Notes: a model not told the origin generated them from the sequence alone. Positions 24,885-54,600 are shown, counted from the first letter of the stretch. The stretch: 64,000 nt of DNA from Trypanosoma brucei (GCA_000002445.1 CM000207.1:1-64000); one strand, 5' to 3'. A program made the numbers and translations.

Positions 24885-26384
24885 ATGCGGTCACTAATAG
24901 CGAATCTACTAACCGCACTAGTAGCTTTGACTTCAGTGGCACATTCGGCGCGAGAAAATGCACAGGAGTACGAAGCTCTTTGTGCAGCATATCAGGCAGC
25001 GACAGGCACCATTGAACCGGCGGATTTCAATACCGCGCAGGCAGATGCAGAAGTACCGACAGCTGTGAAGGCACTGTACGCGGCAACCATACCAGACGAA
25101 CACTACAATAATAAAACCTTTGGCATCTTCACAACCGACACAGAATTTACAGCAGTCAAAGATACAGTAAAAACCGAAAAAAACATTGACAAGTCTCCAG
25201 TTTACACCAGGCCTCCGGAAAGCCCAGGTAAGCGCGCTGCACTCACTGCTTTAGAAAGGCTGTACAACTCAACGAAAGCAACAGCTGGCCAAGCAGCCGA
25301 GAAACAAAAGGAGCTACAAAGCTTAAAAGAAAAGGCCGAAAAATTCTTAAAAGCAGCGGTTTTCGGACATGAAACGGCCACCGAAGCAAAAGAAGAAAAT
25401 TTCGACACCCGGGCCAACGCATGCAACGGCGGCGGCAATGCAAAGGCTGCCAGCCAAAATCTAGCACAAGCGCTAGCATGCGTTTGCGGCACAGCAAGCA
25501 CCAACAACGGGATCTGCGTCCAAGGGGAGGACCAAGCCAACTACGGCACAGGCAGCGGCGCTAGCGCTGGCGTCAGCGCCTATAAAGCCATAGTAGCAAA
25601 ATGTCAACCCGCCACCGAACCAAAAAAAGTCACGGCAGAACTGTTGACAGCGGCAGTCAGCCAAGTAGAATCCGTGCTCGGCAACAAAGCCTTCACAGGC
25701 CACACCAACAACGGAAGGTACGTCCTAGGAAACGGCGCGGCAGCGAACTGCAATGGCGGGGACAGTTCAGCCACTTGCATTGATTACACGACAACAGTGG
25801 GAACAGGAACATTCCACAAAGTAAAATGGGTCGAAAACATGCTCCAAGCAACGAAGGAACTGAAAAAAGCATATACCATAAGAGCGGAGCAAGCCAAAAT
25901 GCAGGCCCAGCTGGAAGCAGCAGAGGCTCAAGCGTGGCAGCTACGCGACACTCTGGCCATAGCCACTATAACCGCAGCACATGCAGCAGAAACTATCAAA
26001 CCTTCCAAGCGCCAACGACAAGAAACAATCGACTCCAAAGAAGCAGAGTGCAATACCAAAGACAAAGACACAGATTGCAAACCGCCATGCGCGTGGAATG
26101 CCGAAGCAAAAGATGAGAAAAAAAGGTGCACATTGAGCGAGAAAGGCAAAGAGGCAGCAGAAAAAGTAGCAGCAAACCAAGCAGGGACAGATGGTAAAAA
26201 TGAATCAAAATGTGGCGAGGCGAAAACAGAAGACGAATGCAAAAAGGTCCCGGGCAAGACACCAGAGGGAAAGAAAGCCGTTTGTGGATGGATTGAAGGC
26301 AAATGTCAGGATTCCTCAATTCTAGCAAGCAAACAATTCGCCCTCAGCGTGGTTTCTGCTGCATTTGTGGCCTTGCTTTTTTAA
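24885..26384 (+). CDS. VSG: Variant surface glycoprotein, apparently intact (499 aa, a-type)
   Basis: Signal peptide MRSLIANLLTALVALTSVAHSA, mature start RENAQEYEALCAAYQA, Cys-rich C-terminal domain and GPI signal ...CQDSSILASKQFALSVVSAAFVALLF*. 16-mer TGATATGTTTTAACAC at 26432-26447. Confidence 0.88.
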   Translation: MRSLIANLLTALVALTSVAHSARENAQEYEALCAAYQAATGTIEPADFNTAQADAEVPTAVKALYAATIPDEHYNNKTFGIFTTDTEFTAVKDTVKTEKNIDKSPVYTRPPESPGKRAALTALERLYNSTKATAGQAAEKQKELQSLKEKAEKFLKAAVFGHETATEAKEENFDTRANACNGGGNAKAASQNLAQALACVCGTASTNNGICVQGEDQANYGTGSGASAGVSAYKAIVAKCQPATEPKKVTAELLTAAVSQVESVLGNKAFTGHTNNGRYVLGNGAAANCNGGDSSATCIDYTTTVGTGTFHKVKWVENMLQATKELKKAYTIRAEQAKMQAQLEAAEAQAWQLRDTLAIATITAAHAAETIKPSKRQRQETIDSKEAECNTKDKDTDCKPPCAWNAEAKDEKKRCTLSEKGKEAAEKVAANQAGTDGKNESKCGEAKTEDECKKVPGKTPEGKKAVCGWIEGKCQDSSILASKQFALSVVSAAFVALLF

Positions 26385-26616: not shown

Positions 26617-27172
26617 TTTTAGTTTTGGGAGTATTTTTTAATTCTCTTTTTATAATTTTTATTTTTTTAATAAATCTCTATTTTCTTAATTGTAAGTGAT
26701 GTAGCGGCTTTTTTACGTCAATCCTAATCATTTTTCTACCAGAAGATAACTTTTATTCATATTTTTCACCTGCAGCGCCGACCAGATTTGTTACTTTCTT
26801 TTGCTTTTGTGAATTTCAGCTCTGCGTTTTGTGCTTCGCGCGGCCTTTAAAATTTTGAAAAAAAAACGTTGCCGCGTGGCCTATGGTGCTGTGGACCGCT
26901 TTTCTTTTTACGCTGTAACGGGGACTTTTGCTGCGCGAAACGACTTTCTTTTCAAGAGACGCTAACAAACAAAACTTAATATTTGGAAGCGGAACAATAT
27001 GGAGTTCGGAAGATAAAGCCATCCGAAATAACAGTCTGTACCGGTCGTGTCACACCACAACAACCTAGGCAAAACAAACGAAGCCCGCGACCAGTTAACT
27101 TGTGCGTCATCAGGCCAATGCGTGCACATCGCCATGCAGCAACAGATCAGGCAGCAGATGTAAAGCACCTTA

Positions 27173-27595
27173 ATGCAGGGCTCCATAATCACTACAGGCA
27201 TAAATCCACCTCAAAAACCAAGCAGAAAGCCAATAGTAGAGGAAAAGAATAAATGCAAACTAAAAAACACAACTGCTGTAGAAGGATGTGCGGCTATTGA
27301 CTATTACTATGATGAAACTAACAAAGAATACAAGACAAAACCAGGAAAAGAAAACACATCAACAGGAACAGGAAAGACAAGTACCGGAGTATACTGCAGT
27401 AAACACCAAACACAGCGAGCCTGTGAAGCGGAAAACAAGGATGTAAAACCGGGTCAGAAAGCAGTATCTGGATGTATTGAGGATAAGTGCAAAGATTTAT
27501 TTTTTCTCTTCAGTAAGAATTTTGCTCTGATGGCTGCTTCTTTTGTGAGCTTGGTACTATTCAAGGATTTTGAATTTTTAAATTTGTTATTTTGA
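27173..27595 (+). pseudogene. VSG C-terminal fragment with stop codon lost
   Basis: ...CEAENKDVKPGQKAVSGCIEDKCKDLFFLFSKNFALMAASFVSLVLF followed by read-through. 16-mer TGATATATTTCAACAC at 27603-27618. No N-domain upstream. Confidence 0.7.
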
Positions 27596-27784
27596 GAGAA
27601 TTTGATATATTTCAACACCTCCTGATGATAATGTGCAAATTTTAAAAACACAAAATTATAAAATTATGGTTTCAAATTGTCCATGGTTGTATCGTACTAA
27701 TTTTATAAGAATATTAAAAGATTTATAGTGTAATTTGCTTTATTTTTCTTGTTTTATGAACGTTAGTTAGGGTTATAATAGTGA

Positions 27785-27920
27785 TAGTAAGGTGAAAGAT
27801 AAGAGTAAGTTGTTAGTGTGTATATACTAATAGTATACTAAAAGCAGTAATTATAGTTATAATTATTATTATTAAGATAGGAGAGTGTTGTGAGTATATG
27901 ATAATAATATAAGTGGTGAA
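27785..27920 (+). repeat. 70-bp repeat(s), forward
   Basis: ...attattattattaagataggagagtgttgtgagtatatgataataatataag... Confidence 0.75.
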
Positions 27921-28849
27921 GACAAATTGAATGCTCCAAATAATAGCATTTCAAGCGATAGCAAGGGTTTAATAAAGTAAGTGGGAAAAGTAGTGTGAGA
28001 GTGAGTGCTTGGGAGAGAAAGAGAACAAGAGGAACATTATGAAAGATAATGGAGAATAATTTTTTTAAAAAATGAAAATGAAAGATAAGTAGCTTACAAT
28101 AAATACAAAACAATGTTCGTCTTTATACACAAGAAGATTATCGGGGAACAATATGAAAGAGACAAAATAGAGCGCAATGACCAACTATGGTTACCCCATC
28201 GGCCGCCGCGCACATACCGCAGAAATTTGTGATGTATCAGTATTAGTAGGAGAAGATTGTAGCCAACATGTCACTGAAGATCTACAGATTTAGCAACACA
28301 GATTGTGATAACAACAATAGTAACATTAGTTTATAAAGACACGATGATGGGACTTTCACGACAAAACAGGGTGGTTGGATAACTATGACAGGCAACTCGT
28401 AATATTCATAGAACATTTAAAATAATCAGGTCAACTAGCTACTTCCATTCAGAAAACTATGCATAGAGGTTAAATGTGAAGATTGTTAAACAGCAGTGGA
28501 ATTCCTCTAGCATTCACAGCACCAGATTATACTAAAACTGATACTAAAACAAAAAGTTAGAGATGTATGATTAAAGAGGTGTTTCAGACACTGATAATAC
28601 GTCATTTAACAACGAAATAATAACAATATTAATGTATTGTTATGTAAAACCAGTAGTGACTCAACATATTTTTTTCTTTTATTTGTTATGATTTTCTTAT
28701 AACATTCTCAAATTTTTTAAGTAAATTAAGTCATTAAATTTGGTGTTTTGGAAAATTTACTATTACCATTTATATTACATAAAGTGTTTCACAGTGCAAA
28801 AACATTTCCGGAAAAACAGGAAAATATAGAATAGGGTCAACATGGGAAG

Positions 28850-29720
28850 CCCAGAGTCTTTGTGATTGTCGTTCAAATAATGCAACTCAAGAATGGTGTA
28901 GGCTCATATTGAGTGACAAACTAAGTAATGTTGACATAATTACAATTGCGACAGAAGGTTTGTATAACCATATTAAAAGATCTGGATAGGTTGTACAATA
29001 TTGATAAAGGCATAATGCAAGTGATGAGGACAATGTTATTCATTTGGATGGGCCTGATGCTATTGTTAGTGATGGAAATAAATATGAGAATGCTGTGGAA
29101 TATTTGATACAAAATACTGCAGAAAATGAAGATAGGGTTGGTGAATAGGATATTTACAAAGAGCATGTGGAGAGATTGTTATTAGTTTTTTAATGTTGGT
29201 TACAGAAAAGAAGAGGATAATAAATTACTTTATTTACTAAAATCACCTCTTAGTAGAAAAAGCTTATCTTAGTGGCGGTGGTTTGATAGCAAGAGTTTGG
29301 GCATTTAAGAAATTTGAATATGCATTTGGAGAATTATTAAAGGGAAGTGGGGAGTGGTGGTCAGAGCAGAGTATTTACAAACCATTGCTAATATGGAGTG
29401 CAAGTGAGGAAGAAACTGTAGGACAGAGATTTGTTTTGAGAAGTGGAATGATTGGGTTATATGATGAAGCGAGATTTTTTTCTATTCAATATGGTCAAAA
29501 AATTGGAGAAGCTTTATTCATTCCACTTTTATCCTCCATTGATTGCATGGAAGAATGAGGCGAAGTTGATTGTGAAAAATATCTGTTGATGTAAAGAATT
29601 GGAAGGAAGGAAATTTAGTACAAGAGATTTGGGGGAACTTCAAACATACAAGATCGATAGCGAGAAATGTTATTTAGAATTTGTGGAGATTTGTTGTGAA
29701 GTGTTTAAAGCAAGGAATAT
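28850..29720 (+). repeat. VSG-upstream module type 1, copy B
   Basis: ASDEDNVIHLDGPDAIVSDGNKYENAVEYLIQNT frame and ORF 29283..29558 MIARVWAFKKFEYAFGELLKGSGEWWSEQSIYKPLLIWSASEEETVGQRFVL... Confidence 0.6.
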
Positions 29721-30290
29721 TTTTAAAGCTCAAAAACAGTAAAATTAAAATTCTGAGTCAGCTCAGGGCTTGCAGGTGCACAGGCTCTCAAGGATATTTT
29801 TTTATTAAAATACAATACCTACTTTTATCCAGACTATGTTAAAAACGGAAACGCGGGCACCGACAGAAGATTAGGCTGGCTTCACTACAGAAAACTACAA
29901 AAGCAATGACATCAGAAAAGTTCTCGGTTTTGACGACTTTCGCCTTTGGGATTCAATTGCGAAAACAGCAAGCACTGGCTAGAAAATAGAAGTCAGCTAG
30001 AACTGAACCTACGGCTAAGCACGACAGCGCAACACCAACCAATGCTTAGCGATACGAAAAACATTCGGCGGCAAAATAACAGTTCAGCGAGGTGTAGTTG
30101 TCTATAAAACAATCTTTCGCCAAAGGGCTGGGACTTACTTTAAGAAAAAAAACAAGTAAATACATACAGAGCAACTGTCAAAAACTTTAAACCGCTTTCA
30201 AAGGGCTGGAGACCTCACCCTCATCGCCGGCCAACAAACCTTAAAATACAAGCACCACCACCAGACACCCTTTCACTAACATAACAGAAA

Positions 30291-31860
30291 ATGAAAGCCA
30301 GACAAATAATTACTCACCTGGCGGTGCTGTTGCTATTAGTGACCCCGCAGGCACGGGCAGCGGCACCGGCAGATGGCGACAACTTAGCGACGCTGGCGTA
30401 CTTGTGCCCCGCCCTTCAGCTAGCGGACGGCGACATAACATTGCACCCCGAACAAAGCAATCTAGATGGCAGCCTACAAGACCTGCTAGCGCTAAACATG
30501 TCACTAGCAGACGCCGCCTGGGCAGCTCAATTCAAGGCCTCACCGCCAGGTGCAACGCCAGTAGCAGCAACCGAGCAGCAGCAGAAGCCAGACCCCGGGA
30601 CACCAGAACAAATTGCTGCGTGGAAAATCGCCAAGGCAACAGTAGATAACAGCGCAAACTTCAAAAATGTGCTCGCAAAATACGGTTACACCCCAGAAAA
30701 CGCCTCGCAGCTGATACCGTTGAAAGGACTGATCGCTAAATACGCTGAAGCGGCATTCGACATACAGACAGCCGAAAAGTCGCAACTGCCGACCGGTCAT
30801 ACGGACGATCAACTGAAAACTCTGATAAAAACAGCAGTCTACGGGCATAACGGCGGCTACGACGTAAGCAAAAAAGCAGAGCTGGGATTTCCAGACAGCG
30901 AAAACCGAGAAGCCGCCTGCACGGCCCAAAGCAACAGCAACCCCGTAAAAACGATTTCCAGCATGGTCGCCTGTTTGTGTACAGTCAAAGACAACATGGC
31001 GCCAGCCAAAGCTCCGTGCGGCCCATACGGCAGCCAAGACCTCAAATGGGGCACAACCACGCCGCCAGGAAACGCTTTGTGGAAAAAGATGCGATCCAGC
31101 TGCCCAGAGGAACCCAAAAAGCCGGTAACCGCTATGAGAATACAAAACGCGCTCACGGCAGCAAAACTAGCGTTCCAAGCAGGAGGCAGCGATCTTTATG
31201 TAGGGAAATACGACGGGACAGGATGCGACGGCAGCACCAATACTGCCTGTATAAAATACACAGGCCAGGCAACAAACTCAGTACCTATCTTCACAAAAGC
31301 CGAGTGGCTCGACAAACTTCAAACAGTACAAAGCGACTTGCAGCAGCGCCTGTTAGCGGAGCAGTCAAAAAGCCAGGTAATCAGGCAAATAAAAACACTA
31401 AAGCAGCTGGTCAAAGCAGCCACCAAACACGCAGAAAAACTTACACCGCCAACGACGCAGCACCATAGCGACCCAAAACTAGCCACCGCAAACGACAAAA
31501 ATAGCCAAGCTCAGAAAACAGCAGATTGCTCAAAACTTGAAAAAGCGGAGTGCAAGCCCGATGTGGGATGCAGATATAACGAAACAACGACTAAATGCGA
31601 AAACGATGCCCAAAATCCAGTTTCAAAAACGAACAAAGAAGCTACAGGAGGAACAACAAACTCTGAAGGTAAGAAGTGCCCCGAAAAGAAAAAAGCAAGA
31701 AGACTGCAAAGATGGCTGCAAATGGAACGGAACAGAATGCAAAGATTCCAGTTTTCTCCTAAACAAACAATTCGCCCTCAGCGTGGTTTCTGCTGCATTT
31801 GTGACCTTGCTGTTTCAAAATTTTAAAACTTACAAGGGGTTTTGTTTAGTTTTGTGAAAC
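30291..31860 (+). pseudogene. VSG pseudogene with intact N-domain, C-terminal frameshift and lost stop
   Basis: 511-aa ORF 30291..31826 with signal MKARQIITHLAVLLLLVTPQARAAAP. Its C-terminus is out of frame. The proper C-terminus ...CKDGCKWNGTECKDSSFLLNKQFALSVVSAAFVTLLF sits in ORF 31537..31857 and runs on (QNFKTY...) because TAA is replaced. Confidence 0.75.
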
Positions 31861-32009: not shown

Positions 32010-32345
32010 TCTAATTTGTTTATTCAGTTATTTTTTGTTTTTATTAAATGGATATTTACTATTGTTATAATAATGATAAAAATAGGAGAGTGTTGTGAGT
32101 GTGTGTATACGTATATTATAATAATATTAATAATAATAATAGTAATGATAATAATAATAATAATAGGAGAGTGTTGTAAGTGTGTGTATACGTATATTAT
32201 AATAATAGTAATAATAATAATAACAGTAATGATAATAATAATAATAGGAAAGTGTTGTGAGTGTGTATATACAAATATTATAATAAGAGCAGTAACAATG
32301 ATAATAATATCGGTGTGTTGTTAGTTTGCATACACTAATATTATA
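32010..32345 (+). repeat. 70-bp repeat array, forward, ~4 units
   Basis: Repeated ...ataggagagtgttgtgagtgtgtgtatacgtatattataataat... Confidence 0.85.
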
Positions 32346-33257
32346 ATAAAAGTTGTCGTGAACACTAAATACACGAAGAAAACACAATCATTTAAATTAA
32401 TAAAAAAAGTGAGACAGGAAAAGGTGAGTAAAACTGTGAGAAAGAGATAAAGTATATTATTATCGAAGGAAGTGCAACAAAACCAGTGACGAATTTGGAT
32501 AAAATACGTGTAACCTTAAATACACGCATAATGCTTGGCGCCATCACTGTATACAAGGAGATTATGGGACGTTCAATACGATATTGGTAGAGCTCAGTTT
32601 ACAGGGGAAATGGAATCGGTACGTTATCTGCAAAAGAAGCGACAGAAAACAAAAAATAGGAAAATATAGAATTAAACGACACAATATGCAACAGCACATA
32701 AGAGAGAAAAAAGTACATCAAGAACAACAAGAACAGGTGAAGCCTTGCATTTTTCTTGGAAATATATGGGCGCATCAGCTGAGATGTTTCAAACTGCTGT
32801 TTTTAATCTTATTATGGATACTAGTGTGAAACAATGACTGCAGTGAGAGGAGGCTAGTATGCTAACTGTGTGTTATTTGCCATAGCCACAAATAAGAGAG
32901 CATAAATGGAGAGGTAAGATGGTCACTTTTTTTGCTGATATTGGTAGAAATGGGTGAATAATCTACACATAATTCAAAGGAAAAGGTATAGCCCACGTCG
33001 ATCCATCTGGTGGGAAGTGTAAATAGACCTACCCGCGGTCATTGAAAGCGCCAACTTGTCTTGATCCATAAGAAGAGGGAAAACATGCGAATCATCCTTC
33101 AAAAGCTGGCTCATCCAGCAGAAATGTACCAGCGTAATGCTAATCCGCTGTCAAAACTAAGTTATATTCCTCTTAAAAAGACTTTTTTCGTCCTTAAACT
33201 AGCCTCACCACAACAGGAATCAAATATCCCCTTTACAAGATAGGCAAAGTCAATTAA

Positions 33258-38439: not shown

Positions 38440-38600
38440 TTAGCATGGGTTATAATAGCAATATTTTATTGCAATAATAGTGGCTTTCTGTGAGTGTGTA
38501 TATGCTAATATTTTAATAAAAGTAGTAATAATAATAATAACAATAATAATAGGAGTGTGTTGTGAGAGTGTATATAATAATATTATAATAAAAGGAGTTG
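38440..38600 (+). repeat. 70-bp repeats, forward, ~2 units
   Basis: ...aataataggagtgtgttgtgagagtgtatataataatattataat... Confidence 0.8.
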
Positions 38601-43484: not shown

Positions 43485-45221
43485 ATGTTCACCTGTACTA
43501 AAACAACTGCTCTCTCCTCCACAGAAGACCCACCACGTTTGCAACGACAAGAAAAGAAACGACAAAATCCGCAGAGAATGCAACAGTCAAGAAGCAGGAC
43601 ACCGGTCTGCTCCAAAAATTGCGCGCTAAAAGCGCTTTGCATAACCCTAGCGACACTGATACTAGCACCTAAAACTAGCGACGCCGCGGCAGCTACAGCC
43701 GGAAGCAACTCAGCCGTTTTCCAGCACCTGTGCACACTGGTGAATGCAGTCACTGAAGTCGAGAAAGTGGGAGACGTACCGGCGACAGTAACGCAAATAC
43801 ACGCCATTGCAGAAAGAACTGCACTAATATTCAGGGCAGCAAAAGAACTAGAGGAACTAGCAGCCCAAACCCCTGGAACCACAAAAAAGGAAGTGGCGTC
43901 AAAGAAGCCAAACACAATTTGCACTGAACAATTGAAGGACGCATGTGCCAGGGCAGCAACATACTTGAAGCAAATGAAACCACAGGACAGGCAGCATTTA
44001 CTAGCTTTTGTCGCTAGCGGTAACCCAGCAGTGCAGCTAGTAAACGACACGGCTAACTCGTTACTGTTAAAGACGTCAAATTTCATAGCCGATGCAGAAA
44101 AAAGGTCTAATAAGGAAGCTCTAAAACATCTGCGTACGACTTTCTACAGTGAAGGTAGAGACTCAGTAACTAATGCAATATTTGCTGATGCAAGCGGCTG
44201 GAAAGACGAATGCGGTAGCCAGAGCGGGGCAGCAGCCACGGGTGCAAAAAATAATCTAGCTGCAACCTTTCTTTGCCTGTGCGCAGCCGACTCAAGTGGC
44301 TGCAACCCAACCTGCAAGACTTGCGACAACGAGGCGGTGCCGGCCGTCACATTCACAACCGGCGGTAACGACGCGACAACAGCATTCGACAAAATAAAGA
44401 CAATATGCAAACGACGGGCAGCGACACCGAATCTTAACCAGCTACCAGAGGCAATAGCAAAAACGGTAGCCGCAATTGAAGAGGACTTAGCGGCGCACAA
44501 AGGCAACGGCCCCGACGTCGGCATGATTGGCGCCATCACCTCCGGCGGCCGGCCAGCCTGCGACGGCTCCAGCACGGCAGGCAAAGGAGCGTGCGTCTAC
44601 CTTGGTGCAAGCGGGAGCGCGCCGAGCAAGCCAAGCTGGCTCGATGAACTGACCCAAGCACTGCTCGCTGCCCAAACTGCTGCAAAAGCGGAACTCGATA
44701 GCACAGCACAAGCAGCTCATATTGAGGGAATCAACACAACCCTAGCGCTAGCACTACTAAACGGCATTTATCAAACACAAGCCAACAGCAGACAACAGAC
44801 ACATCAGGAGGCGCCTCAACACCCTAGAGAACACATGGCTAACTCAGCCAAGACACAAAAAGAATTTGAGCAACACAAAGACAACAAAACTGCTTGTACA
44901 GAAGCCAAATGCAAATGGAAAGGAGGGGACGATGAAAAAGGGGAGTGCAAAGTAGATAAAAGTAAGGTTAAACAACAGATAAATACAGCAGTAACAGGGG
45001 ATGAAACTGCAGGAACAACAAAAGATGTGTATATATAACACGAAACCAATAATGAAGCCTTTGTATCTGACGAAAAATGTAAAAAAAATAATCGTGCATT
45101 CAGAAAGGGTAAAGATAATGAAGATGACAAGGATACAGAAAAGTATAGAAATGGTAGATTTATCGTCAATAATAAAATGGTTCTGAGTATGAATGCTGCC
45201 TTTTTGGATTTATTTTTCTAA
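43485..45221 (+). pseudogene. VSG with intact N-domain and a C-terminal frameshift (GPI signal out of frame)
   Basis: 517-aa ORF ends ...CKWKGGDDEKGECKVDKSKVKQQINTAVTGDETAGTTKDVYI* with no GPI signal. A shifted frame downstream encodes ...NGRFIVNNKMVLSMNAAFLDLFF* ending at 45219-45221. The probable true start is M at 43581 (MQQSRSRTPVCSKNCALKALCITLATLILAPKTSDA), and the upstream 32 aa look like read-through. 16-mer CGATATTTTTTAACAC at 45253. Confidence 0.75.
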
Positions 45222-45399: not shown

Positions 45400-45480
45400 A
45401 AGTAGGGCTATAATAGCAATAGTCATAATAATTATTAGATGAGAGTGTTGTGAGTGTATATGCACCAATATTATAAGGTG
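45400..45480 (+). repeat. 70-bp repeat, forward, single
   Basis: ...aattattagatgagagtgttgtgagtgtatatgcaccaatattataag... Confidence 0.75.
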
Positions 45481-46191
45481 AGTGGTTAAGCCTAATTGCA
45501 CGAGCAACATAGAAGCACTTACAACAGTTAAGATAGTGTAATATTAGTAAGTTTGCGAGTTAGAAAGAACAGGCAGGACAATTATGAATGTTATGATAAA
45601 GGAAAATGAAGGGTTGGGGCGACTCACCCGTAATGTCAAAATAAGAAGTGCACAAGTAAAAATCATTAGAAATAATATAGGAAACGCAATCATGGGGAGG
45701 CTCAACGCCTAGGGAGAATAAAAAAAAGTTGACACGTTGAACGCAGCAAAAGCAAAAGGATATTCTGTTGGGCACGGTGCAAAGGAAGACACTCAAATCA
45801 AAGATAAGAAAGAGCGGACTTTTTTTCTTTCGTGCCTTCGTGGGAGTTTCCCCCACTGGCGCGGCCATCAACCATCACCGTAGAGCCCTGAGATGCTATC
45901 GATCTGGCGACTGTGGTAGAGTCTCCCTTTTTTATTCAGCCTAACACACCCTTTATAATTTTTGTTGTAGTTCCGCAGTTGAACGGAATACAGCAGATGG
46001 GGCGAGAAGCCTCCCACTCCGGACTCTCCCAAAGATGTCAATTAGCAATCCTTTTGTTTTGATTTTTGTTATTCGTTTATTATTCTCTTCTCCCTCTTTC
46101 TGTTTCTGTTGCTTGTTGATTGCATACCCCCTCTGTCTCTGAGGGTGTCTGGACTATTCCTGCGTCCGGTGCTTTTCCTGCTAGCTCCACA

Positions 46192-48318
46192 CTAGGCAAT
46201 AAGGGGGGAAGTTGCAGAAGGGAGAGTGGGTTGTATGACTGTTACCTTAGGTGAGGACTTCACCTGCGGCCGGCTCCGTTCAACCGCAATGAGAAACTGC
46301 GCCAGCCTTTTAGAGAAACATACATCCTGCACACACTCACCTTCTACCGCAAACCTGACATGTAACTCCTTCAAACCGGGGCAGCTCATCAAGTGCAGCG
46401 ACGTTTCTTCGCAGTCGCCGCGTTGGCTGGTAACAGCGCGCTCTACCTTCATACCGTGCATCTTCTTTTGATGTAGGGTGAGGCCAGTTTTGCTAGCACA
46501 CTTCCTTCCGCATGTCGGGCACACCAACATGGATGTGTTTGTATGCGGGGAATCAGTGGCACACAATTTTGTGCTTTTGCTGCATTTAAGCTCGGCTCCC
46601 TCACCTTTGTGGAAAGCCTTACAGTGTCGGATGAGGGAGTCCCTGCAACTGAGCACTTTTTGGCACACACCACACTGCACCTCTCCTCTCCCCCGGACGT
46701 CAACGTTTCCCTCACGGGCACGCTTACGAGGGAATTGCACCACCACAACGGTACCTTCCTCCGTCACTATGCTTTTATGTTTGAATTTTTTGTGTAGTGA
46801 CAGGGAAGAGCGTGTACCGAAGCTCGCCTCACACAGGTCACATTGAAACGGCAGCTTCCGTGTATCCTGAGGAGCTGGCACTGCTGGGACGCTACCATCT
46901 CCTTGCACTGAGTCCTCGTTTTCTTGCCCCCTTTTCACGTGGCAACTACCGTTACCTATGCCATGTATTGTTCTAAGGTGGTGTAATAGTCGGCCTTGCA
47001 CTGCGAATTTGGAGGCACAGATGGTACAATGAAGCAACTGCGGTCTCATCGGGACTCGTGTGTTCGATGGTAGAGGAACGATCGCCACCACTGGAGGGGG
47101 CTCCGGGGGGATATCCACTGCAGGTGTTGCATCGCCGTATTTGATCCTCCGGAGGGCATCAGCTCGCACAAAGCCATGTTTGTTTACCATGTGCGTTACA
47201 GCACTCGAGCGGCATTGGTATGTGGCATCACATTCCGTACATTTTGTCGGTTCGGAGGTTCTCTGAAGAGTGCGTGTCGCAACAGGTGGGGCCTTTTGTA
47301 TTGTTGGTCCTATCGGTGCATGTTTCTGGTTGCACCATCGGCACTGTGGAGGCACACTCGGGTTGATCTTTCGCAACATCCATCCATAGTGTCTTGAAGA
47401 CCCAACCCGAAAGCGTGCCAGTGCCGTTTCTTCTTCCCTCGTCAGTTCTTCTTTATGTTTTGTTGGAAAGTGGTTGCCCGTGATACCAAACCTATGAGTG
47501 TTCTCATGGACTTCTTCCGACCTAAGCACTCGCTTCGCATAAGCAATGATGTTGGGGATCCATGTGTCTCGCAACTGTGGTAAATCTGCGGCCTTTTTGG
47601 CCATTTTATCACAAACCTCATTCCGTTTCACGCTACAATGGCCAAACACAAATTGCAGTCGGATACGCACTTTCCTTCTCTGAACTTGAAGCAGAAGCCT
47701 CCATAGTCGTCTCAGAATTAGCTCTGTTACGGGTACGGGGCCTATCTGCAGTGCTGTTAACATTGACAGCGAGTAAGAGAAGATGGACAACCTGCTCGGT
47801 GTGCTTCTGTATGCCAGAAACCATTTCAGCAGCCTTTGCAGTCCTATCTCTAATGCTACGCATTCCGCTCTGTAACTGCATGAGAGTTCCCCTGCTCCGG
47901 TCTTGGGTGCACAAATCAGCGTGTTGTTTCTATGGAGCATGGCAGCTGCTCCGGACTTCTCACCGAGGGACACGGATCCATCAGTCCACAATTCGTAGTG
48001 CTCTCGTCGCGATGGCTCCTTCCCCCTCCGTGCAAAATGCCGTTCAATCCACTTTTCGTAAGCCTCCCTTTTAACATCGTCAGGGTCATCAGCGCACACA
48101 GGCTTTACCTGCGTGTGAAATAGCGGTCGGCAGCTGTGGCGGAGCGTCGATGTCTCTAGTGGGTGCTCGCGTGGCTCAATGTGGAGGTGGGGGTAGGACC
48201 GCATGATGCGGGAATGTAAGACTCTGACTGGGTGTTTGCTGTGGTATACTTCCTCGGCACTGCGCCGCAAACATCCGCCTCGTGACTCATACATCAGCAT
48301 GAATTTCATACTGCCCAC
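46192..48318 (-). pseudogene. ingi copy 2 ORF segment: RNase H/C2H2 zinc-finger C-terminal region
   Basis: About 95% identical at the protein level to the 16124..18853 segment of copy 1. Confidence 0.75.
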
Positions 48319-48810
48319 AAGAGTGGCCGTCTTGAGTGGCAGGAGGTTTGCTTCCAGCAGAGAGTCCTCTTTGCGCGTCCCATGCGGTATGCCGGCTATG
48401 ATGCGACTGGCCTTGTGTTGTGCTGCTGCAAGGAGGTCGCGACTTCGTTTCGAAGCGTCTCAGTACCATACCTCACTGCCATACATGGTGTGTGCCTCTA
48501 CGAGTGCTAGATAAAAAGCTCTCAGTACTTGTCGTCTTGGCCCCCATGTAGAAGTTGAGATGGCTGCTATCTGCAGTAGTCGAAAGTCCATCTTGCGTCT
48601 CGTTTCGGCCGCATGTGTTGCCATCCCTTGCAGACACTGGAATGTTACTCCTAGAAGCTTCGGTGTCCTGTCAGCTCCTATTCTTTCGCCGTTCAGTTGT
48701 AATGTAAGGGAGTGGCGCTCTATACACCCGAAGAGTGTGCACTTTGTTTTCGCTACGTTGACATACATGAAGTACTCTTTTGACCACTGTAACACCACGT
48801 TTAGGCCGCA

Positions 48811-50001
48811 TTACAGCGTGTGGTTAATGACATCCCTCTCTGTGTGCCTCGCAAGTAGCGTCAGGTCGTCTGCAAAGAATCCGTGCTGCAGCAACGGCAC
48901 TTCTGCAAGGAACTGGCTCAACGAGTTCATGACAATAATGAACATGATTGGGCCAAGGACAGTTCCTTGTGGCACTCCTCGCTCAAATGTTCTGCTTCTA
49001 GAAAGCTTCTCCTTGAATCTCACTCTGCCAGTTCGGTTACTCAGAAATGATACGCACCACTTCACAATGTGGGGTGATACCTTCATTCTGTGCAATTCTC
49101 TCACAATTTTGTCGTGTTCTACTGTATCGAATGCCTTCTCGTAGTCGACGAATACAGCACCCGTACGAGATTGGTGCGTGGGACGGCAGAGGGAAGCGCG
49201 GACGTGCAGGAGTTGTTCCAGCGTTGAGCATCCGGGGCGAAAGCCTGATTGCTGCGGCGTCAGCTGGGACTCAACAGTGTCTCTAAGTCTCGCGGCAATT
49301 ATGCGTTCCATGAATTTGCAGAGACAGCTCGTGAGCGTCACAGGCCTGTAAGAATCGAGGTCCTCCGCCTTTTTTCCGGCCTTCAGGATGGGGATGATAA
49401 CACCGGTCTTCCATGTAGGCGGCACGACTCCCGTTCGTAGGTTCTCATTGAATAGCATCAGAACAACATTCAGCGCTGCTCTACCGAGATGTTGCAGTGC
49501 CTCGTTGTATAAGCAATCAGGTCCGGCTGCGGATCCACTCGGTAGCAGTTTGATCGATCTCCGTAGTTCAGCCATCGTGATGGGACTGAACTCACTCGCT
49601 ATTGTCTTTATGGGTGCCTGTGGGTGTGAGTCGATGTGCCTTCTTTCTCGGGACGAGTACAGTTTACTGAACCTCTCAGCTTGACGGTAGTCCGTGATGG
49701 CCACGTAATCAACAAGTACAGCCGGTGTGGTTAGTGGTCGTGGCGCATATACCTTCTTGACAATGTGCCAACTGCAGCGGTCTGACACCGCAAGTCTGGA
49801 GCATAGCGTGCTCCATCTCTTCTTTGTGGTACGGTCCAGGATCTGCTTACGCGTGACTACCAACTTTTCCCTTCGGTGGGATGTTCCGCATCCAGCGATC
49901 TCTTCATCGAGTTTCGCGAGCTCGGGTGTCCAATGTGGTGGCGTTGCTCTGCAGCCACGGGGGACGGAGGCCTTCGTCGCAATGAGGATGGCGGAGCTCA
50001 A
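48811..50001 (-). pseudogene. ingi copy 2 ORF segment: reverse transcriptase
   Basis: ...PQGTVLGPIMFIIVMNSLSQFLAEVPLLQHGFFADDLTLLARH... Confidence 0.75.
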
Positions 50002-50079
50002 TTTCTGTTCCAGGGTGTTGACGTTCTTCTCTCTACCAATTTTCCTGCAGAGCTCGTCAACCTTGAGACGGAAATTACT

Positions 50080-51058
50080 CTAGTCAGCTTTTAGCCATGC
50101 GTACATGGGCTTTCGAAGCCGCGGGCAACTCAGTGCATCTGTGTCCTCTCCAACGATAACGTCGAAAAATATGTGATGGTGATCGCTATCGGAAGAATAC
50201 AGCGATGTCCACGTGTACACTGTACAATTCCTTGACAGTGTCACATCAGGGGTGGACTCCCCATGGTGGCGCGCGTACCTGGTGCACTCACCAGTGTTGC
50301 AAACCAGAAACTGGTTGTCAATGCACCACTGTGTGAGGGTTTCACCCTTGGTATTTGTTGGGCTCGCGCGATCCCATGCCAACGCGTGTGCGTTAGCGTC
50401 TGCACCGATGAGCTGGGCACCGACAGTTGTCAGAAGCGTATCTAGGTCAGTTGCCGTGAAGATATATTTTGGTGGGATGTATGCCGACGTGACAGTCAGC
50501 GCCGTTGCACGTGTAAGGTGAATTGTTGCATGCACTTGTTCAATGCGACCAATAACGGCCATACCGGTATCGACTGGTAGGTCCTCCCTCACTAGTATTG
50601 ATACACCACCTCCTTTGCAGTTACGAGCTATTCCGTGATGTTGGTAGCCAGCAACGCTAAAGCAAGCCGCCTCTCCAGGCGTCATCCTTGTCTCGCTCAA
50701 CAGACAAAAGGCGATCCGCTCATCAACAAGGGTTTTGTGGAGTGCTAATCTCTTTCCTTGAGATAGCCCGGCGCAGTTCCACTGCATCCCGCGCAACGAC
50801 GGGCCGGGATTCTCTTCCACATCACCGGACATCAGAATCTTGGTGCGGATGATACTGCTGATGGCACGCTGGCAAATGCCCATGGACTGACAAATGAAAA
50901 ACGGTGTCCCAGCAAGACGCTGCTGATCCCTGTGCTGTATTATGCCGTAGCAGGAGCGAAGCATTGTTCCCCATGAAAGGAACGCTGCTGGCTCTTGGCT
51001 TCCCCCGATGATACGGGGCACTGGACCCTGGCACCACGTTGAGGTGGCTGGCATCGCC
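50080..51058 (-). pseudogene. ingi copy 2 ORF segment: endonuclease-like N-terminal region with 2A-like peptide
   Basis: ...MPATSTWCQGPVPRIIGG...RTKILMSGDVEENPGPSLRGMQWNCAGLSQGKRLALHKTLVDERIAF... The called ORF starts in flanking DNA (MRSFFAIFVVLFTQA). Confidence 0.7.
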
Positions 51059-51099
51059 TGAGTAAATAGTACAACAAAGATAGCAAAGAATGACCGCAA

Positions 51100-51960
51100 A
51101 AATCCCAGTGTTTGTGGTTGTAGTAAAACTTATGTAACTCAAGTATCGTGTAGATTAATATTGAGTGACAAACTAAGCCATATTAAAATTATTACAATTG
51201 AAATGGGAGGTTTGTATACTCATGCTAAGAGGCGTAGGTGGGTTATAAAATTTTTAGAAATACAAAATGCAAGTGATGAGGATATTGTAATAAGTGTAGA
51301 TGGGTCTGATGTTATAATTTCTGATGGGAATAAGAACGAGATTGTTGTGAACATTTTATACGAGAAACAACTCACAGTGGGAACAAATTTCATGAAGAAG
51401 ATATTCACAGAAAGCACATAAACAGATGTTATTAGTTTTTTAATGTTGGACACAGAAAAGAAGAGGATAAGAAGTTACCTCACTTACTTAAATCATCTCC
51501 TGGTTGAAACACCTATCTTAGTGGTGGTCGTTTGATAGGGCGAGTATGGACATTTAAGAAATTTGAATATGCTTTTAGAGAGTTACTAAAGGGAAGTGGG
51601 GAGTGGTGGTCAGAGCAGAGTATTTACAAAGCATTGTTAATATGGAGTGCAATTCAGGAAGAAGCTGTTGGACAGAGCTTTGTTTTGAAGAGGGGAAAGA
51701 ATGTATTTGATTATAAGAAGATATTTCTTACTATAACAAATAGTGTCATATAGGAGCGGAAACATTGATACATTTTGCAGAGCAGCCAATTGCATGGGAA
51801 CATAAAGCGGAACGGATTGTGGAAAAATTTACTTGGCACAGATAGTTTAAAAGGACGGTGTTTACAACTACTGAATCGAAAAATTCAAGAATATGCAGTA
51901 TCTAGAGAGAAATGTGGTTTTAGCTATCGGGAAATTCGTGGTGAAAGTTTTTCATAAGTG
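51100..51960 (+). repeat. VSG-upstream module type 1, copy C, abutting the ingi copy 2 5' end
   Basis: ORF 51161..51421 (...ASDEDIVISVDGSDVIISDGNKNE...) and ORF 51532..51753 MIGRVWTFKKFEYAFRELLKGSGEWWSEQSIYKALLIWSAIQEEAVGQSFVL. Confidence 0.6.
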
Positions 51961-52252
51961 GATCTGTTTAAAGTTATGAAGTTGTAAACATAAAAATGGA
52001 CGGTAATGTTTACTTCCAAGCCCTTGCATTCTAACAGGCGAAACCTTTACCAAGGCAAAACTAACCATGTGAAGACCGCCTTTGTGTGCCGTTCTGCTTC
52101 ATGGAGATACAACCTCTAAAGCGTAGGGGTCAAACACTTATACAAAATGAGGCAGCGGAGACAACTAGACTACAATGCAACACAACCTGCCTTAACACCT
52201 GCCCTGTTACTTATTGCTGATACACAAAAAGCTCCAAGCAAAGTAGAATCTG

Positions 52253-53779
52253 ATGATCTATATAGTGCTCCTAGCGCTCTTTGCGTTACCCAAGGCAGTA
52301 TCTCCAGCTGCCAACCAAAACGCAGCTGAGTACAGAGCTTTATGCGATTTAATAGCGCTCAAGGAGTCCATTTCGACGTTAACTGAACCAACAGCCGACA
52401 CTGCAGTTACAGACATCGTTAACGACATCGAAATGCTGAACATATCAACGGCCACAGACAGTTTCATAGCGGACAGAGATGGCGAACTTAAAGAGACAGA
52501 ATCGGGAGTCAAAAAAAGCGAAAAAGAGGCATGGCAGGAAAAGATAAAAAAGCTCGATCAAGAGACAGGAGAACCCAAAACTGTCAAATACAAAAGACTA
52601 AAAGACAAAACGACGCGTGGGCCAGCAAACCAAAACATCAACAAGTTGCTGCAACGGGCTCAGCAGCTGAAAATTGCTTACGAACAACAGATCTCAGAGG
52701 CGAAATCAAAAAAAACAGCGATTACAACATCAATTAAAAACGCTATTTACGGAAAAGGACAGGAAGACTTCCAAGAAAAAGCACTTGACACCAACGACGC
52801 AAAAAACAACTGCGGAAAAGCGGCAGGCAGCGAAAACGTCGGTCAAAGCCTAAGCAACGACCTGGTGTGCCTTTGCATACCGGACCAAGGCGCGAACGGA
52901 AACGACTTGTGCGAACACGGGCTGCAACCAACAGCGGTAGCCGTAGCAAACCGAGGCAGCCAAACCACACCACAGTACACCACCATGGTCAACGGCTGCA
53001 AACTGCAGCATCGGAAAAGACAACTGACGCCATATTTAATAATCCAACGCCTCGCAGCGTTTGACAGCCTTTTGGGCAGACAAGCGCAAACAGCGACCAC
53101 AGCAGCGGCGACAAGAACACTTGGCAAACCACACAGCGATGGAAACTGCGACAACAGCGCAACCCAGGGCATGTGCGTCAACTATAAGCAGCAAATAGAA
53201 ACAGCAACCACAGGCATCCCATGGGTAGCACAACTAACCCAAGCCGCCCATGATTTAACAGCAATGAACAAAGCAACAGAACATGCGGCAGCCATCAAGA
53301 CACAACTGGAGAGCATTCAAGCGAGTGCTTGGGCTGTCTACGCAGCGGCGGTAAACACCGAGCTCAACCAACGGCACCCAAAGCAAAACGAACAACCGAT
53401 ACAAGCAACAACAGTCAACGACAACAAGTGCAAGCCAACAAACGCAACTCCTGCCGAATGCCCAAGCGACCATTGCGTTTATGACGATAAAGCAACAGAT
53501 GGTAACAAATGCAAACCTAAACCAGGAACAGAAACCACAGCAGCAGCAGGAACAGGAGAGACACCAAAAGAGGGAGCAGCTGCAACTGGGTGTGTAGCAC
53601 ACAAAGATAAAACCACTTGTGAAAATGACAAAACAGGCGACAAGCAAAATTGTGCATGGAGAAGGGGAAAAGATAGTGAGCCTGACCGAGAAAAAGAAAT
53701 GTGCCTTGATTCCAGTTCTCTTGTCAATAAGAAGTTGGATCTGATGGCTGCTGCTTTTGTGAGCTTGGTAAAATTTTAG
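52253..53779 (+). CDS. VSG: Variant surface glycoprotein, apparently intact (508 aa, a-type)
   Basis: MIYIVLLALFALPKAVSPAANQNAAEYRALCDLIAL... A complete C-terminal domain ...CENDKTGDKQNCAWRRGKDSEPDREKEMCLDSSSLVNKKLDLMAAAFVSLVKF*. The signal peptide is short, so the start codon is uncertain. Confidence 0.8.
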   Translation: MIYIVLLALFALPKAVSPAANQNAAEYRALCDLIALKESISTLTEPTADTAVTDIVNDIEMLNISTATDSFIADRDGELKETESGVKKSEKEAWQEKIKKLDQETGEPKTVKYKRLKDKTTRGPANQNINKLLQRAQQLKIAYEQQISEAKSKKTAITTSIKNAIYGKGQEDFQEKALDTNDAKNNCGKAAGSENVGQSLSNDLVCLCIPDQGANGNDLCEHGLQPTAVAVANRGSQTTPQYTTMVNGCKLQHRKRQLTPYLIIQRLAAFDSLLGRQAQTATTAAATRTLGKPHSDGNCDNSATQGMCVNYKQQIETATTGIPWVAQLTQAAHDLTAMNKATEHAAAIKTQLESIQASAWAVYAAAVNTELNQRHPKQNEQPIQATTVNDNKCKPTNATPAECPSDHCVYDDKATDGNKCKPKPGTETTAAAGTGETPKEGAAATGCVAHKDKTTCENDKTGDKQNCAWRRGKDSEPDREKEMCLDSSSLVNKKLDLMAAAFVSLVKF

Positions 53780-54125: not shown

Positions 54126-54399
54126 GTTGAGGACGAAACGGACAGAGACGAAAAAGCACTTAAAACAGTGCTGAAGATGTAATGGGAGTACATGAGTTAG
54201 AAAAAGCTTTGAGAAGCGACCAGCTATATTATTAGACAAAATGCAGAGAGGGGATGTATCATACGCATTGCGAAGAAAATACGTAATGATAGATCATCAT
54301 AAGAAAGAATATGGTGGCAGAAATCATCAAGTGGAACAGCGTAGTAAATGGACCAAATGTAGTTACTGCCTTTTACGTAACAGAAGCAGAAGGAGATGC

Positions 54400-54600
54400 T
54401 TCTGCCTAAAGCCCCAGTAAAGACCGGCGACAAAGGAATGAGAATGCGCGCATATGACACAATGGAGGATATCTATGAAGCGGGTTCAATCAGCGGTGAT
54501 ACTCCTGGAACTCCTAGTGGCGTACTGAAAGGACGCTAACCTCTTTCAAGAGCGAATGATAAATATAATTGCTTTTACTGACGAAGGGGTAAAGGCACAA
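54400..54600 (+). repeat. VSG-upstream module type 2, copy 3 (divergent)
   Basis: ...ttcaatcagcggtgatactcctggaactcctagtggcgtactgaaaggacgc... Confidence 0.4.

What the first reader, a model, noticed from the sequence alone, without database searches (positions are those of the whole stretch)
45400..52253. Both ingi copies sit at VSG cassette boundaries; the 70-bp repeat is present or missing around them
ingi copy 2 (45819-51058) lies between a single 70-bp repeat (45400-45480) and a type 1 module plus intact VSG (51100-53779). The element therefore separates a VSG from its own 70-bp repeat by 5.2 kb. ingi copy 1 directly abuts the body of a plus-strand VSG pseudogene (21250..) that has no 70-bp repeat. 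On the ingi's other side, the intact minus-strand VSG 12308..13771 has no 70-bp repeat within 1.8 kb upstream. The 70-bp repeats are the upstream homology used for duplicative VSG gene conversion. VSGs cut off from their 70-bp repeats by retroelements should therefore be less able to donate to expression sites. The two copies are near-identical, implying recent activity or conversion between copies. Both share the 2A-like DVEENPGP and both are broken by stops, so they depend on intact copies elsewhere.
Basis: partly seen in the sequence, partly recalled or inferred. Interest (0 to 1): 0.5.

Follow-up and report, generated by a model that had tools for sequence, protein, structure and literature searches.

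The report
Dead ingi retrotransposons at VSG-array rearrangement joints
Two broken copies of the known ingi retrotransposon lie in a silent surface-antigen (VSG) gene array at the left end of Trypanosoma brucei chromosome 9, and both mark old rearrangement joints rather than clean insertions, which is ordinary, already catalogued biology.

Summary
The window is T. brucei TREU927 chromosome 9 (NC_007282), bases 1-64000. A published table lists both ingi copies at these same coordinates.

- ingi copy 2 is 45820-51058/62 (-). Copy 1 is 15864-21116 (-).
- The copies are 97.5% identical, and both carry DVEENPGP.
- All disabling mutations are private. Copy 1 has one stop and one 1-nt deletion. Copy 2 has four stops.
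- A single 70-bp repeat lies at 45406-45496. No repeat lies upstream of VSG 12308-13771 or of the truncated VSG pseudogene at 21117.

- Neither copy has a matching 12-nt target-site duplication.
- Copy 1 is a recombinant. A T. equiperdum paralogue keeps VSG codons 1-56, with only a 213-nt ingi 5' fragment in the ORF.
- At copy 2, homology to the "type 1" upstream module starts at the ingi edge. About 840-940 nt of that module are missing. The left flank resembles a different cassette.
- So the 70-bp repeat at 45406 probably belonged to another, deleted cassette.

Both VSGs are annotated "atypical". VSG 12308 still appears to have fed expressed mosaic VSGs. A working Lister 427 expression site carries an ingi between its 70-bp repeats and its VSG. 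The finding is known biology and of low interest.

The parts
45406..45496 (+). Single 70-bp repeat downstream of VSG 43485-45038
   Evidence: nhmmer profile hit, E=1e-18. Core motif GAGTGTTGTGAGTGT at 45443-45457 with 0 mismatches.
45497..45819 (+). 323-nt post-repeat spacer, left flank of ingi copy 2. It is of the 'cassette 54048' type, not type 1.
   Evidence: 45513-45766 matches 54154-54400 (E=2.8e-9). Local-alignment z=13.9 to cassette 54048, against z=1.3 and 3.8 to the two type-1 cassettes. Only the first ~110 nt resemble the T. equiperdum type-1 cassette.
45820..51062 (-). ingi copy 2, full length with an A7 tail, inactivated by four private stop codons
   Evidence: 97.5% identical to copy 1. 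Pfam finds Exo_endo_phos, RNase_H and zf-C2H2. Stops at 50080-82, 48811-13, 48460-62 and 46192-94 are sense codons in copy 1. Listed as INGI at NC_007282 45829-51058 (m) in PMC4660242. No TSD: the flanking 12-mers GAAAGAGCGGAC and TAAATAGTACAA match at 6 of 12 positions.
50800..50823 (-). 2A-like motif DVEENPGP in copy 2
   Evidence: Translation. Residues 79-86 of the ORF.
51063..52252 (+). Distal part of a 'type 1' VSG upstream module, right flank of copy 2, truncated at the ingi edge
   Evidence: 51060/51076-51995 matches 23653-24665 (62%) and 28822-29750 (71%). It also matches T. equiperdum L001 4818-5740 (71%). In those three cassettes the module continues 860-940 nt further upstream to a 70-bp repeat.
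52253..53779 (+). B-type VSG, 508 aa, open reading frame but 'atypical'
   Evidence: Pfam VSG_B 1.2e-72 plus Trypan_glycop_C 3e-25. 100% identical to EAN76225/XP_803375 'VSG, atypical' of TREU927. C-terminus reads ...CLDSSSLVNKKLDLMAAAFVSLVKF. No 3'UTR 16-mer within 3 mismatches.
15864..21116 (-). ingi copy 1, full length with an A10-11 tail. It has one private stop and one private 1-nt deletion. It is a recombinant element with unmatched flanks.
   Evidence: Alignment. Stop at 20833-35 (W to stop). 1-nt deletion at element position 2237, about window 18876. Pfam finds RVT_1, Exo_endo_phos_2, RNase_H and zf-C2H2. The 3' flank carries TSD TACTCACTTGAT and the 5' flank carries CTTTGAAACGGA. Listed in PMC4660242 with end coordinate 21112.
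20854..20877 (-). 2A-like motif DVEENPGP in copy 1
   Evidence: Translation.
15636..15851 (-). 216-nt ingi/RIME 5'-only fragment in tandem with copy 1
   Evidence: 90-94% identical to the 5' ends of both copies. It is bounded by two exact copies of TACTCACTTGAT, at 15624-15635 and 15852-15863. These are the only two in the window, against 0 expected.
21117..21128 (+). CTTTGAAACGGA, one copy of the 12-nt TSD of the old insertion into the VSG ORF
   Evidence: In T. equiperdum L001 the 213-nt fragment is flanked by CCTCGAAACGGA and CTTCGAAACGGA inside the intact VSG 5' region.
21117..22452 (+). 5'-truncated VSG pseudogene, lacking about 54 codons, with 4 in-frame stops and no upstream cassette
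   Evidence: Frame translation. 66% identical to VSG 1125.283, starting from that protein's residue 55. The missing N-terminus occurs nowhere in the window. No Pfam hit.
12308..13771 (-). A-type VSG, 487 aa, 'atypical', and probable donor to expressed mosaics
   Evidence: Pfam Trypan_glycop 9.8e-105. It is EAN76223 'VSG, atypical'. P0058 (AGQ49803) is 97% identical over residues 1-462 with a different C-terminal domain. P0062 and P0063 are 94-95% identical.
13772..15623 (-). 1.85-kb upstream region of VSG 12308-13771, with no 70-bp repeat
   Evidence: No nhmmer hit at E<=10. No similarity to other parts of the window or to L001. No RHS or other Pfam domain.

Best explanation
These are two old, dead copies of the T. 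brucei ingi non-LTR retrotransposon in the silent subtelomeric VSG array at the left end of TREU927 chromosome 9. Neither is a clean insertion. Each marks a joint where different array sequences were brought together, most likely by homologous recombination between dispersed ingi sequences.

Copy 1.
- Shown: a short ingi 5' fragment had inserted into a VSG ORF with a 12-nt TSD. That state survives in a T. equiperdum paralogue.
- Inferred: the fragment later recombined with a full-length ingi from a chromosome-6-like locus. That locus carries an ingi, a poly(A) tail, the TSD TACTCACTTGAT and a 5' fragment in tandem.
- Inferred result: the event deleted VSG codons 1-54, the upstream region and the 70-bp repeat. 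It also created the divergent strand switch of the array.

Copy 2.
- Shown: there is no TSD, and the flanks are not collinear.
- Inferred: the ingi joins the 70-bp repeat and proximal spacer of one cassette to the distal 1.2 kb of a type-1 upstream module belonging to VSG 52253.
- Inferred consequence: VSG 52253 has lost its own 70-bp repeat and sits 6.8 kb from a foreign one.

Function (inferred from established VSG-switching biology). Whole-cassette gene conversion starting in 70-bp repeats is disfavoured for the flanking VSGs. They remain usable through homology inside the ORF, that is, by mosaic formation.
For: Identity and location. The window is NC_007282 bases 1-64000, and both elements are listed at the same coordinates. 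The VSG proteins are 100% identical to TREU927 entries.

ingi features. Length, domains, poly(A) tail and the 2A motif are all present.

Copy 1 is a recombinant.
- The 3' flank TSD TACTCACTTGAT has no partner at the 5' end. The 5' flank is CTTTGAAACGGA.
- L001 9561-11493 matches window 20900-22834 at 86.5%. There, VSG codons 1-56 are present and a 213-nt fragment is flanked by C[C/T]TCGAAACGGA.
- Copy 1 and L001 share the terminal variant GCCGGGG.
- Chromosome 6 has the same tail, GAAGAAAATTCC-A6-TCAAGTGAGTA-fragment, and the same TSD at the ingi 5' side.
- The VSG N-terminus is absent from the window.

Copy 2 sits at a joint.
- It has no TSD.
- Type-1 homology starts at the ingi edge in three independent cassettes. 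Those cassettes are collinear from the 70-bp repeat to the VSG.
- The left flank is of another cassette type.

Literature.
- The Tbingi TSD is 12 bp, and tandem elements separated by a TSD are common (PMC3820030).
- ingi and RIME recombine and cause rearrangements (PMC2854126).
Against: - For copy 2 no paralogous or 'empty' locus could be retrieved, so recombination is inferred only from non-collinear flanks. An insertion with a target-site deletion, or an insertion at a double-strand break, would look similar.
- Only three type-1 cassettes were available as the reference architecture. Upstream regions might be naturally modular.
- The chromosome 6 comparison rests on 100-nt flank strings in a supplementary table, not on the sequence itself.
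- A mis-join of the assembly inside the 5.2-kb repeat cannot be excluded with these tools.
- The functional consequence was not tested.
Confidence: 0.62

Rival explanations
1. Copy 2 is a simple target-primed insertion into the intact cassette of VSG 52253. On this view the 70-bp repeat at 45406 is that VSG's own, and the TSD has decayed.
For: The order 70-bp repeat then VSG stays one-to-one along the plus-strand block. Without the ingi, the repeat-to-ATG distance would be about 1.5 kb. That lies inside the 0.9-2.4 kb range of the other cassettes. The flanking 12-mers match at 6 of 12 positions.
Against: A match of 6/12 is below the >65% used for vestigial TSDs (PMC3820030). The left flank shows no type-1 homology beyond about 110 nt, although the right flank is 62-71% identical to type 1. 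About 840-940 nt of the module are absent.
Confidence: 0.15
2. Copy 2 entered by an endonuclease-independent or aberrant retrotransposition event at a DNA break. The event was accompanied by a deletion or by capture of foreign flanking DNA, rather than by later ingi-ingi recombination.
For: There is no TSD. The module is truncated exactly at the element's complete 5' end.
Against: Nothing here separates this from ingi-ingi recombination. Copy 1 shows that ingi-homology recombination did happen in this same array.
Confidence: 0.15
3. The chimeric flanks are an assembly artefact. Contigs would have been mis-joined inside the 5.2-kb ingi repeat in the TREU927 reference.
For: ingi is a high-copy, roughly 97%-identical repeat. 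Subtelomeres are the least reliable parts of the assembly (general knowledge). [quoted passage not shown]
Against: The two copies differ at 129 positions spread evenly, with no identical run longer than 250 nt. Sanger reads could therefore tell them apart. Copy 1's 5' junction is independently present in a T. equiperdum assembly. The chromosome 6 locus independently shows the 3' composite.
Confidence: 0.07
4. The ingi elements act mainly as barriers. They functionally silence the adjacent VSGs as donors by uncoupling them from 70-bp repeats.
For: [quoted passage not shown] No expressed VSG more than 45% identical to VSG 52253 is in the protein collection, which appears to hold the TREU927 cDNA-derived VSGs (that these entries are the Hall 2013 cDNAs is inferred).
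Against: VSG 12308 has no 70-bp repeat at all. It nevertheless has 94-97% identical entries in the protein collection that are inferred to be expressed mosaic VSGs, which fits the Set_31 donor Tb927.9.160. BES2 in Lister 427 works with an ingi between the 70-bp repeats and the VSG. Both VSGs are atypical and need 3' donation in any case.
Confidence: 0.2

Closest known systems
Tbingi (ingi4 subclade) non-LTR retrotransposon of Trypanosoma brucei, as annotated in TREU927 chromosome 9
   Same: About 5.24 kb. Conserved 5' signature CCC(T/C)GGCGATGCC.... One long ORF starting at about nt 5, with endonuclease, RT, RNase H and C2H2 fingers. An N-terminal 2A-like DVEENPGP motif. A short poly(A) tail. 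The same coordinates appear in a published ingi/RIME table.
   Different: Neither copy has the matched 12-bp TSD of a fresh insertion. Both ORFs are broken.
Tandem ingi/RIME arrangements separated only by a 12-bp TSD (Bringaud et al. 2004 and 2011, PMC3820030)
   Same: Copy 1's poly(A) tail is followed by TACTCACTTGAT, then a second element 5' end, then TACTCACTTGAT again. The same composite exists on chromosome 6.
   Different: The second element is only 216 nt of 5' sequence with no 3' half and no poly(A), so it is not a full 500-bp RIME.
ingi/RIME-mediated rearrangements in T. brucei genomes (Jackson et al. 2010, PMC2854126)
   Same: The elements have unmatched flanks. Cassette parts are lost and a strand switch lies at the element.
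   Different: The joints here lie inside a silent VSG array and remove or swap 70-bp repeats. The cited examples are core-chromosome indels.
Lister 427 BES2 (VSG 427-9/VO2), with an ingi element 3' of the 70-bp repeats (Hertz-Fowler et al. 2008, PMC2567434)
   Same: An ingi lies between 70-bp repeat sequence and a VSG.
   Different: BES2 is a telomeric, transcribable expression site with a long repeat array. This locus is a silent array cassette with a single repeat and an atypical VSG.

Membership tests
Tbingi non-LTR retrotransposon | About 5.2-kb element with the conserved 5' terminal signature shared by ingi and RIME | tested here: met
   5,235 and 5,236 nt align. The 5' ends align with each other, with the 216-nt fragment and with a T. 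equiperdum fragment. PMC4660242 lists both as INGI/RIME, element positions 5-5237.
Tbingi non-LTR retrotransposon | Single long ORF encoding AP-endonuclease, reverse transcriptase, RNase H and C2H2 zinc fingers | tested here: met
   Pfam finds Exo_endo_phos(_2), RVT_1, RNase_H and zf-C2H2 in the ORF pieces. A frame of about 1,661 codons can be reconstructed, interrupted by 1 stop plus 1 frameshift in copy 1 and by 4 stops in copy 2.
Tbingi non-LTR retrotransposon | 3' poly(A) tail | tested here: met
   A10-11 in copy 1 and A7 in copy 2.
Tbingi non-LTR retrotransposon | Matched 12-bp target-site duplication flanking the element (PMC3820030) | tested here: not met
   Copy 2 flanks match at 6 of 12 positions. 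Copy 1 has TACTCACTTGAT at the 3' side and CTTTGAAACGGA at the 5' side. This counts against 'undisturbed insertion', not against the element being an ingi.
Tbingi non-LTR retrotransposon | N-terminal 2A-like D(V/I)ExNPGP motif, known for L1Tc and ingi (own knowledge) | tested here: met
   DVEENPGP in both copies.
Array VSG cassette (70-bp repeat, upstream region, VSG, conserved 3'UTR) | 70-bp repeat(s) 1-2.5 kb upstream of the VSG | tested here: not met
   For VSG 52253 the nearest repeat is 6.76 kb upstream and probably foreign. For VSG 12308 and the pseudogene at 21117 there is none. Eight plus-strand and two minus-strand VSG genes or pseudogenes in the window do have one.
Array VSG cassette (70-bp repeat, upstream region, VSG, conserved 3'UTR) | VSG N-terminal and C-terminal domains | tested here: met
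   VSG 52253 has VSG_B plus Trypan_glycop_C. VSG 12308 has Trypan_glycop (A-type).
Array VSG cassette (70-bp repeat, upstream region, VSG, conserved 3'UTR) | Canonical GPI signal and 3'UTR 16-mer TGATATATTTTAACAC | tested here: not met
   VSG 52253 has no 16-mer within 3 mismatches downstream, and its C-terminus ends ...SLVKF. Both VSGs are annotated 'atypical'. VSG 12308 has a 16-mer with 3 mismatches at 12209-12224.
70-bp repeat | Match to the repeat consensus, including the GAGTGTTGTGAGTGT core flanked by TAA/TGA-rich runs | tested here: met
   45406-45496, nhmmer E=1e-18. The core has 0 mismatches.

The most novel reading that the evidence does not exclude
The roughly 215-nt '5'-only' ingi fragment may be a distinct short retroposon that lacks poly(A) and is mobilised by the ingi machinery. 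It is found with 12-nt TSDs and the same internal end at two independent sites. One site is window 15636-15851. The other is inside a VSG ORF in T. equiperdum. Such short copies inside VSG genes would then act as seeds of homology. Through them, full-length ingi elements and whole foreign array blocks could be recombined in. That would remove 70-bp repeats and reshape which VSGs can act as whole-cassette donors.
Probability: 0.15. Interest if true: 0.4.

Novelty: already known. Interest (0 to 1): 0.2.

Why it matters
The finding adds little to what is known. ingi elements in VSG arrays, their 2A-like motif, their decay, their 12-bp TSDs and tandems, and their role in rearrangements are all published. 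These two copies sit in the reference annotation and in a published table.

The useful outcome is a correction. The 70-bp repeat at 45406 should not be treated as the partner of VSG 52253. Both elements should be read as rearrangement scars.

As a worked example, the locus shows how retroelement homology can strip VSGs of their 70-bp repeats. Such VSGs are then pushed toward use only through mosaic formation. A genome-wide version of that question (donor use against 70-bp status, controlled for intactness) would be worthwhile. It needs switch datasets, not this window.

Tried and rejected
- Exact look-ups of VSG 52253 in assemblies found no place, so no other strain's locus could be read. Its closest protein relative is only 45% identical, so no 'empty site' allele could be sought.
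- Pfam found nothing in the pseudogene ORFs on the minus-strand block or in the 21117 pseudogene. The latter was confirmed as a VSG only by homology search.
- I tested whether the 13772-15640 region is an RHS (retrotransposon hot spot) remnant. That would have explained the recurrent TSD TCAAGTGAGTA. There was no Pfam signal and no similarity to anything else held, so I rejected it.
- I looked for swapped TSDs between copy 1 and copy 2, which an exchange between the two copies would leave. None were found.
- I looked for a recent conversion tract between the copies. The longest identical run is 250 nt, about what 129 evenly spread differences give.
- Rfam (gathering threshold) and tRNA scans of the whole window found nothing.
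- Literature searches for the gene IDs Tb927.9.160 and Tb09.354.0060 gave only spurious prefix matches. The equivalence of VSG 12308 with Tb927.9.160 therefore remains an inference.

Full report
**Where the window is.** VSG 52253-53779 is 100% identical to a TREU927 protein on a 3,057,547-bp contig, annotated 'VSG, atypical'. A published table of ingi/RIME positions lists elements on NC_007282 (chromosome 9) at 45829-51058 (m) and 15636-21112 (m). Their 5' flank strings equal the window sequence. The window is therefore chromosome 9, bases 1-64000. This is the left subtelomeric VSG array.

**Check of the observation.**
- A profile built from the window's own 70-bp repeats finds a single repeat at 45406-45496 (E=1e-18).
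- The same profile finds a regular alternation of repeat and VSG along the plus-strand block. Repeats lie at 22698, 27776-27925, 32051-32361, 35040, 38488-38599, 42069 (weak), 45406, 54048, 58293 and 61713.
- On the minus strand it finds a tract of at least 20 copies at 1-1600, plus 4122-4205 and 7184-7250.
- It finds nothing between 7250 and 22665.
- ingi copy 2 aligns to copy 1 at 97.5% identity, with 126 mismatches and three 1-nt indels.
- With tails and terminal bases, the elements span 45820-51062 and 15864-21116, both on the minus strand.
- Pfam finds endonuclease, RT, RNase H and C2H2 fingers.
- DVEENPGP is present in both copies.
- The factual content of the finding is therefore right, subject to the corrections given under the observation check.

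- The coding frame runs from about nt 5 to a natural stop at about nt 4988, roughly 1,661 codons.
- Copy 1 has one premature stop (W to stop, window 20833-35) and a 1-nt deletion at element position 2237.
- Copy 2 has four premature stops, at window 50080-82, 48811-13, 48460-62 and 46192-94.
- At every one of these sites the other copy has a sense codon. No disabling mutation is shared.
- Differences are spread evenly, at 7-16 per 500 nt. The longest identical run is 250 nt. dN/dS between the copies is 0.50.
- The copies are therefore independent descendants of coding-competent sources. They are not a duplicated dead copy, and they show no recent conversion tract.

**Copy 1 is a recombinant element.**
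- Immediately 3' of its poly(A) tail lies TACTCACTTGAT (15852-15863). Next comes a 216-nt ingi 5' fragment (15636-15851), then a second exact TACTCACTTGAT (15624-15635). These are the only two copies of that 12-mer in the window.
- Tbingi TSDs are 12 bp. Tandem elements separated only by a TSD are a known product of repeated insertion at one target (PMC3820030).
- The 5' end of copy 1 is not followed by that 12-mer. It is followed by CTTTGAAACGGA and then directly by a VSG reading frame.
- That frame is 66% identical to VSG 1125.283, starting at that protein's residue 55. The missing 54 N-terminal codons occur nowhere in the window.
- A T. equiperdum locus (L001, CM010675.1) holds a paralogous cassette. 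It is 86.5% identical over 1,940 nt, with L001 9561-11493 matching window 20900-22834.
- In L001, VSG codons 1-56 are present. Only a 213-nt ingi 5' fragment interrupts the ORF, flanked by CCTCGAAACGGA and CTTCGAAACGGA. A 70-bp repeat lies 1.5 kb upstream.
- Copy 1 and the L001 fragment share the terminal variant GCCGGGG.
- On chromosome 6, the published table shows the same unusual tail, GAAGAAAATTCC-A6-TCAAGTGAGTA, followed by a 5' fragment. It also shows the same 12-mer at the 5' side of the ingi.
- The simplest history has two steps. First, a short fragment inserted into a VSG ORF. Later, that fragment recombined with the 5' end of a full-length ingi from a chromosome-6-like locus.
- That event removed the VSG 5' end and its 70-bp repeat. 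It also juxtaposed a minus-strand block with the plus-strand block.
- The second donor of Hall's Set_31, Tb927.6.5370, is 94% identical to Tb927.9.160. This fits the left block being a chromosome 6 paralogue. That link is an inference.

**Copy 2 also sits at a joint.**
- The 12 nt on either side (GAAAGAGCGGAC and TAAATAGTACAA) match at 6 of 12 positions, and no longer shared word lies adjacent to the element.
- To the right, homology to the upstream modules of VSG 24885 and VSG 30291 begins at 51060-51076 and runs to 51995 (62% and 71%). The same holds for a third type-1 cassette in T. equiperdum (L001 4818-5740, 71%).
- Those three cassettes are collinear with one another from the 70-bp repeat onward. 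They have 860-940 nt between the repeat and the point that corresponds to the ingi edge.
- In the copy 2 cassette only 323 nt lie between the repeat and the ingi. Those 323 nt resemble the spacer of cassette 54048 (z=13.9). They do not resemble the type-1 proximal segments (z=1.3 and 3.8).
- Hence the 70-bp repeat at 45406 most likely belongs to another cassette whose remainder is gone.
- Recombination between two ingi copies in different cassettes explains this best.
- An insertion with a target deletion, or an insertion at a break, cannot be excluded. A clean insertion is unlikely.

**Function.**
- 70-bp repeats in the expression site promote access to archival VSGs (PMC4858185). Loss of the repeat should therefore lower whole-cassette donation.
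- Three facts limit the point for this locus.
  1. Both VSGs are 'atypical'. VSG 52253 has a non-canonical C-terminal signal and no recognisable 3'UTR 16-mer. It would need 3' donation in any case.
  2. VSG 12308, which has no repeat at all, clusters with T. brucei VSG proteins that look like expressed cDNAs. P0058 is 97% identical over residues 1-462 with a different C-terminal domain. P0062 and P0063 are 94-95% identical, with patchy differences at residues 86-285.
  3. Lister 427 BES2 has an ingi 3' of its 70-bp repeats and can be activated (PMC2567434).
- The pattern in point 2 fits Hall et al. 2013 Table S1, Set_31. That set is a mosaic with donors Tb927.9.160 (A-type, atypical) and Tb927.6.5370, with 3' donation. 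The ID match and the cDNA origin are inferred from accession style, gene order and properties. They are not proven.
- No expressed relative of VSG 52253 was found. That agrees with poor use but does not demonstrate it.

**Comparison with what is known, and verdict.**
- Everything here belongs to described categories. These are Tbingi and its 2A-like motif, 12-bp TSDs and tandems, ingi-mediated rearrangement (PMC2854126), and array VSGs that lack 70-bp repeats and are used as mosaic donors (PMC3708902).
- The elements are already annotated and tabulated.
- The analysis adds a corrected reading of the locus. It also gives a small lead: a roughly 215-nt 5'-only fragment with TSDs at two independent sites.
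- Novelty: already known. Interest: low.

Noticed in passing
window 15636-15851 (-), TSDs at 15624-15635 and 15852-15863; L001 9561-9777: A roughly 215-nt ingi 5'-only fragment with no poly(A) occurs at two independent sites. Each has 12-nt duplications and the same internal end (GGATGATACTG...). In T. equiperdum it sits inside a VSG ORF. The published ingi/RIME table also lists many 'RIME A' pieces of 1-211 and 1-220 nt. These may form a short mobile family or come from a recurrent truncation mechanism.
   Followed up: partly
window 1-1600 (-): The chromosome 9 assembly starts inside a tract of at least 20 70-bp repeats on the minus strand. The tract is far longer than the 1-4 copies at array cassettes. 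It points to a VSG or telomere beyond the assembly end.
   Followed up: no
window 27038-27571 (+), 16-mer at 27603-27618: A partial VSG aligns to residues 149-511 across the panel VSGs. It has its own 3'UTR 16-mer but no 70-bp repeat of its own. It follows VSG 24885-26384 directly.
   Followed up: no
window 12308-21116 versus NC_007279 (chromosome 6) about 1.484-1.490 Mb: Chromosome 6 carries the same composite of ingi tail, TCAAGTGAGTA and 5' fragment. The 94%-identical VSG paralogue Tb927.6.5370 is on that chromosome. The whole left block of the window, up to a point inside ingi copy 1, may be a segmental duplicate of the chromosome 6 right subtelomere.
   Followed up: partly
window 20833-35, 50080-82, 48460-62 (-): Three of the five premature stops in the two ingi copies are TGG (Trp) to stop changes. 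Overall, transitions versus transversions between the copies stand at 70:56.
   Followed up: no
window 30291-31826 (+) and 43485-45038 (+): Two full-length open VSG ORFs (511 and 517 aa) are not in the protein collection as exact sequences. They are perhaps annotated as pseudogenes or with other starts. VSG 30291 has no Pfam C-terminal domain hit.
   Followed up: no
window 8900-12300 (-): An A-type VSG N-terminal remnant lies at 10111-10706. A degenerate 70-bp/post-repeat remnant lies near 11936-12040. Neither this cassette nor the possible VSG-derived ORFs at 7717-8898 (no Pfam or VSG-panel hit) has a recognisable repeat of full strength.
   Followed up: no
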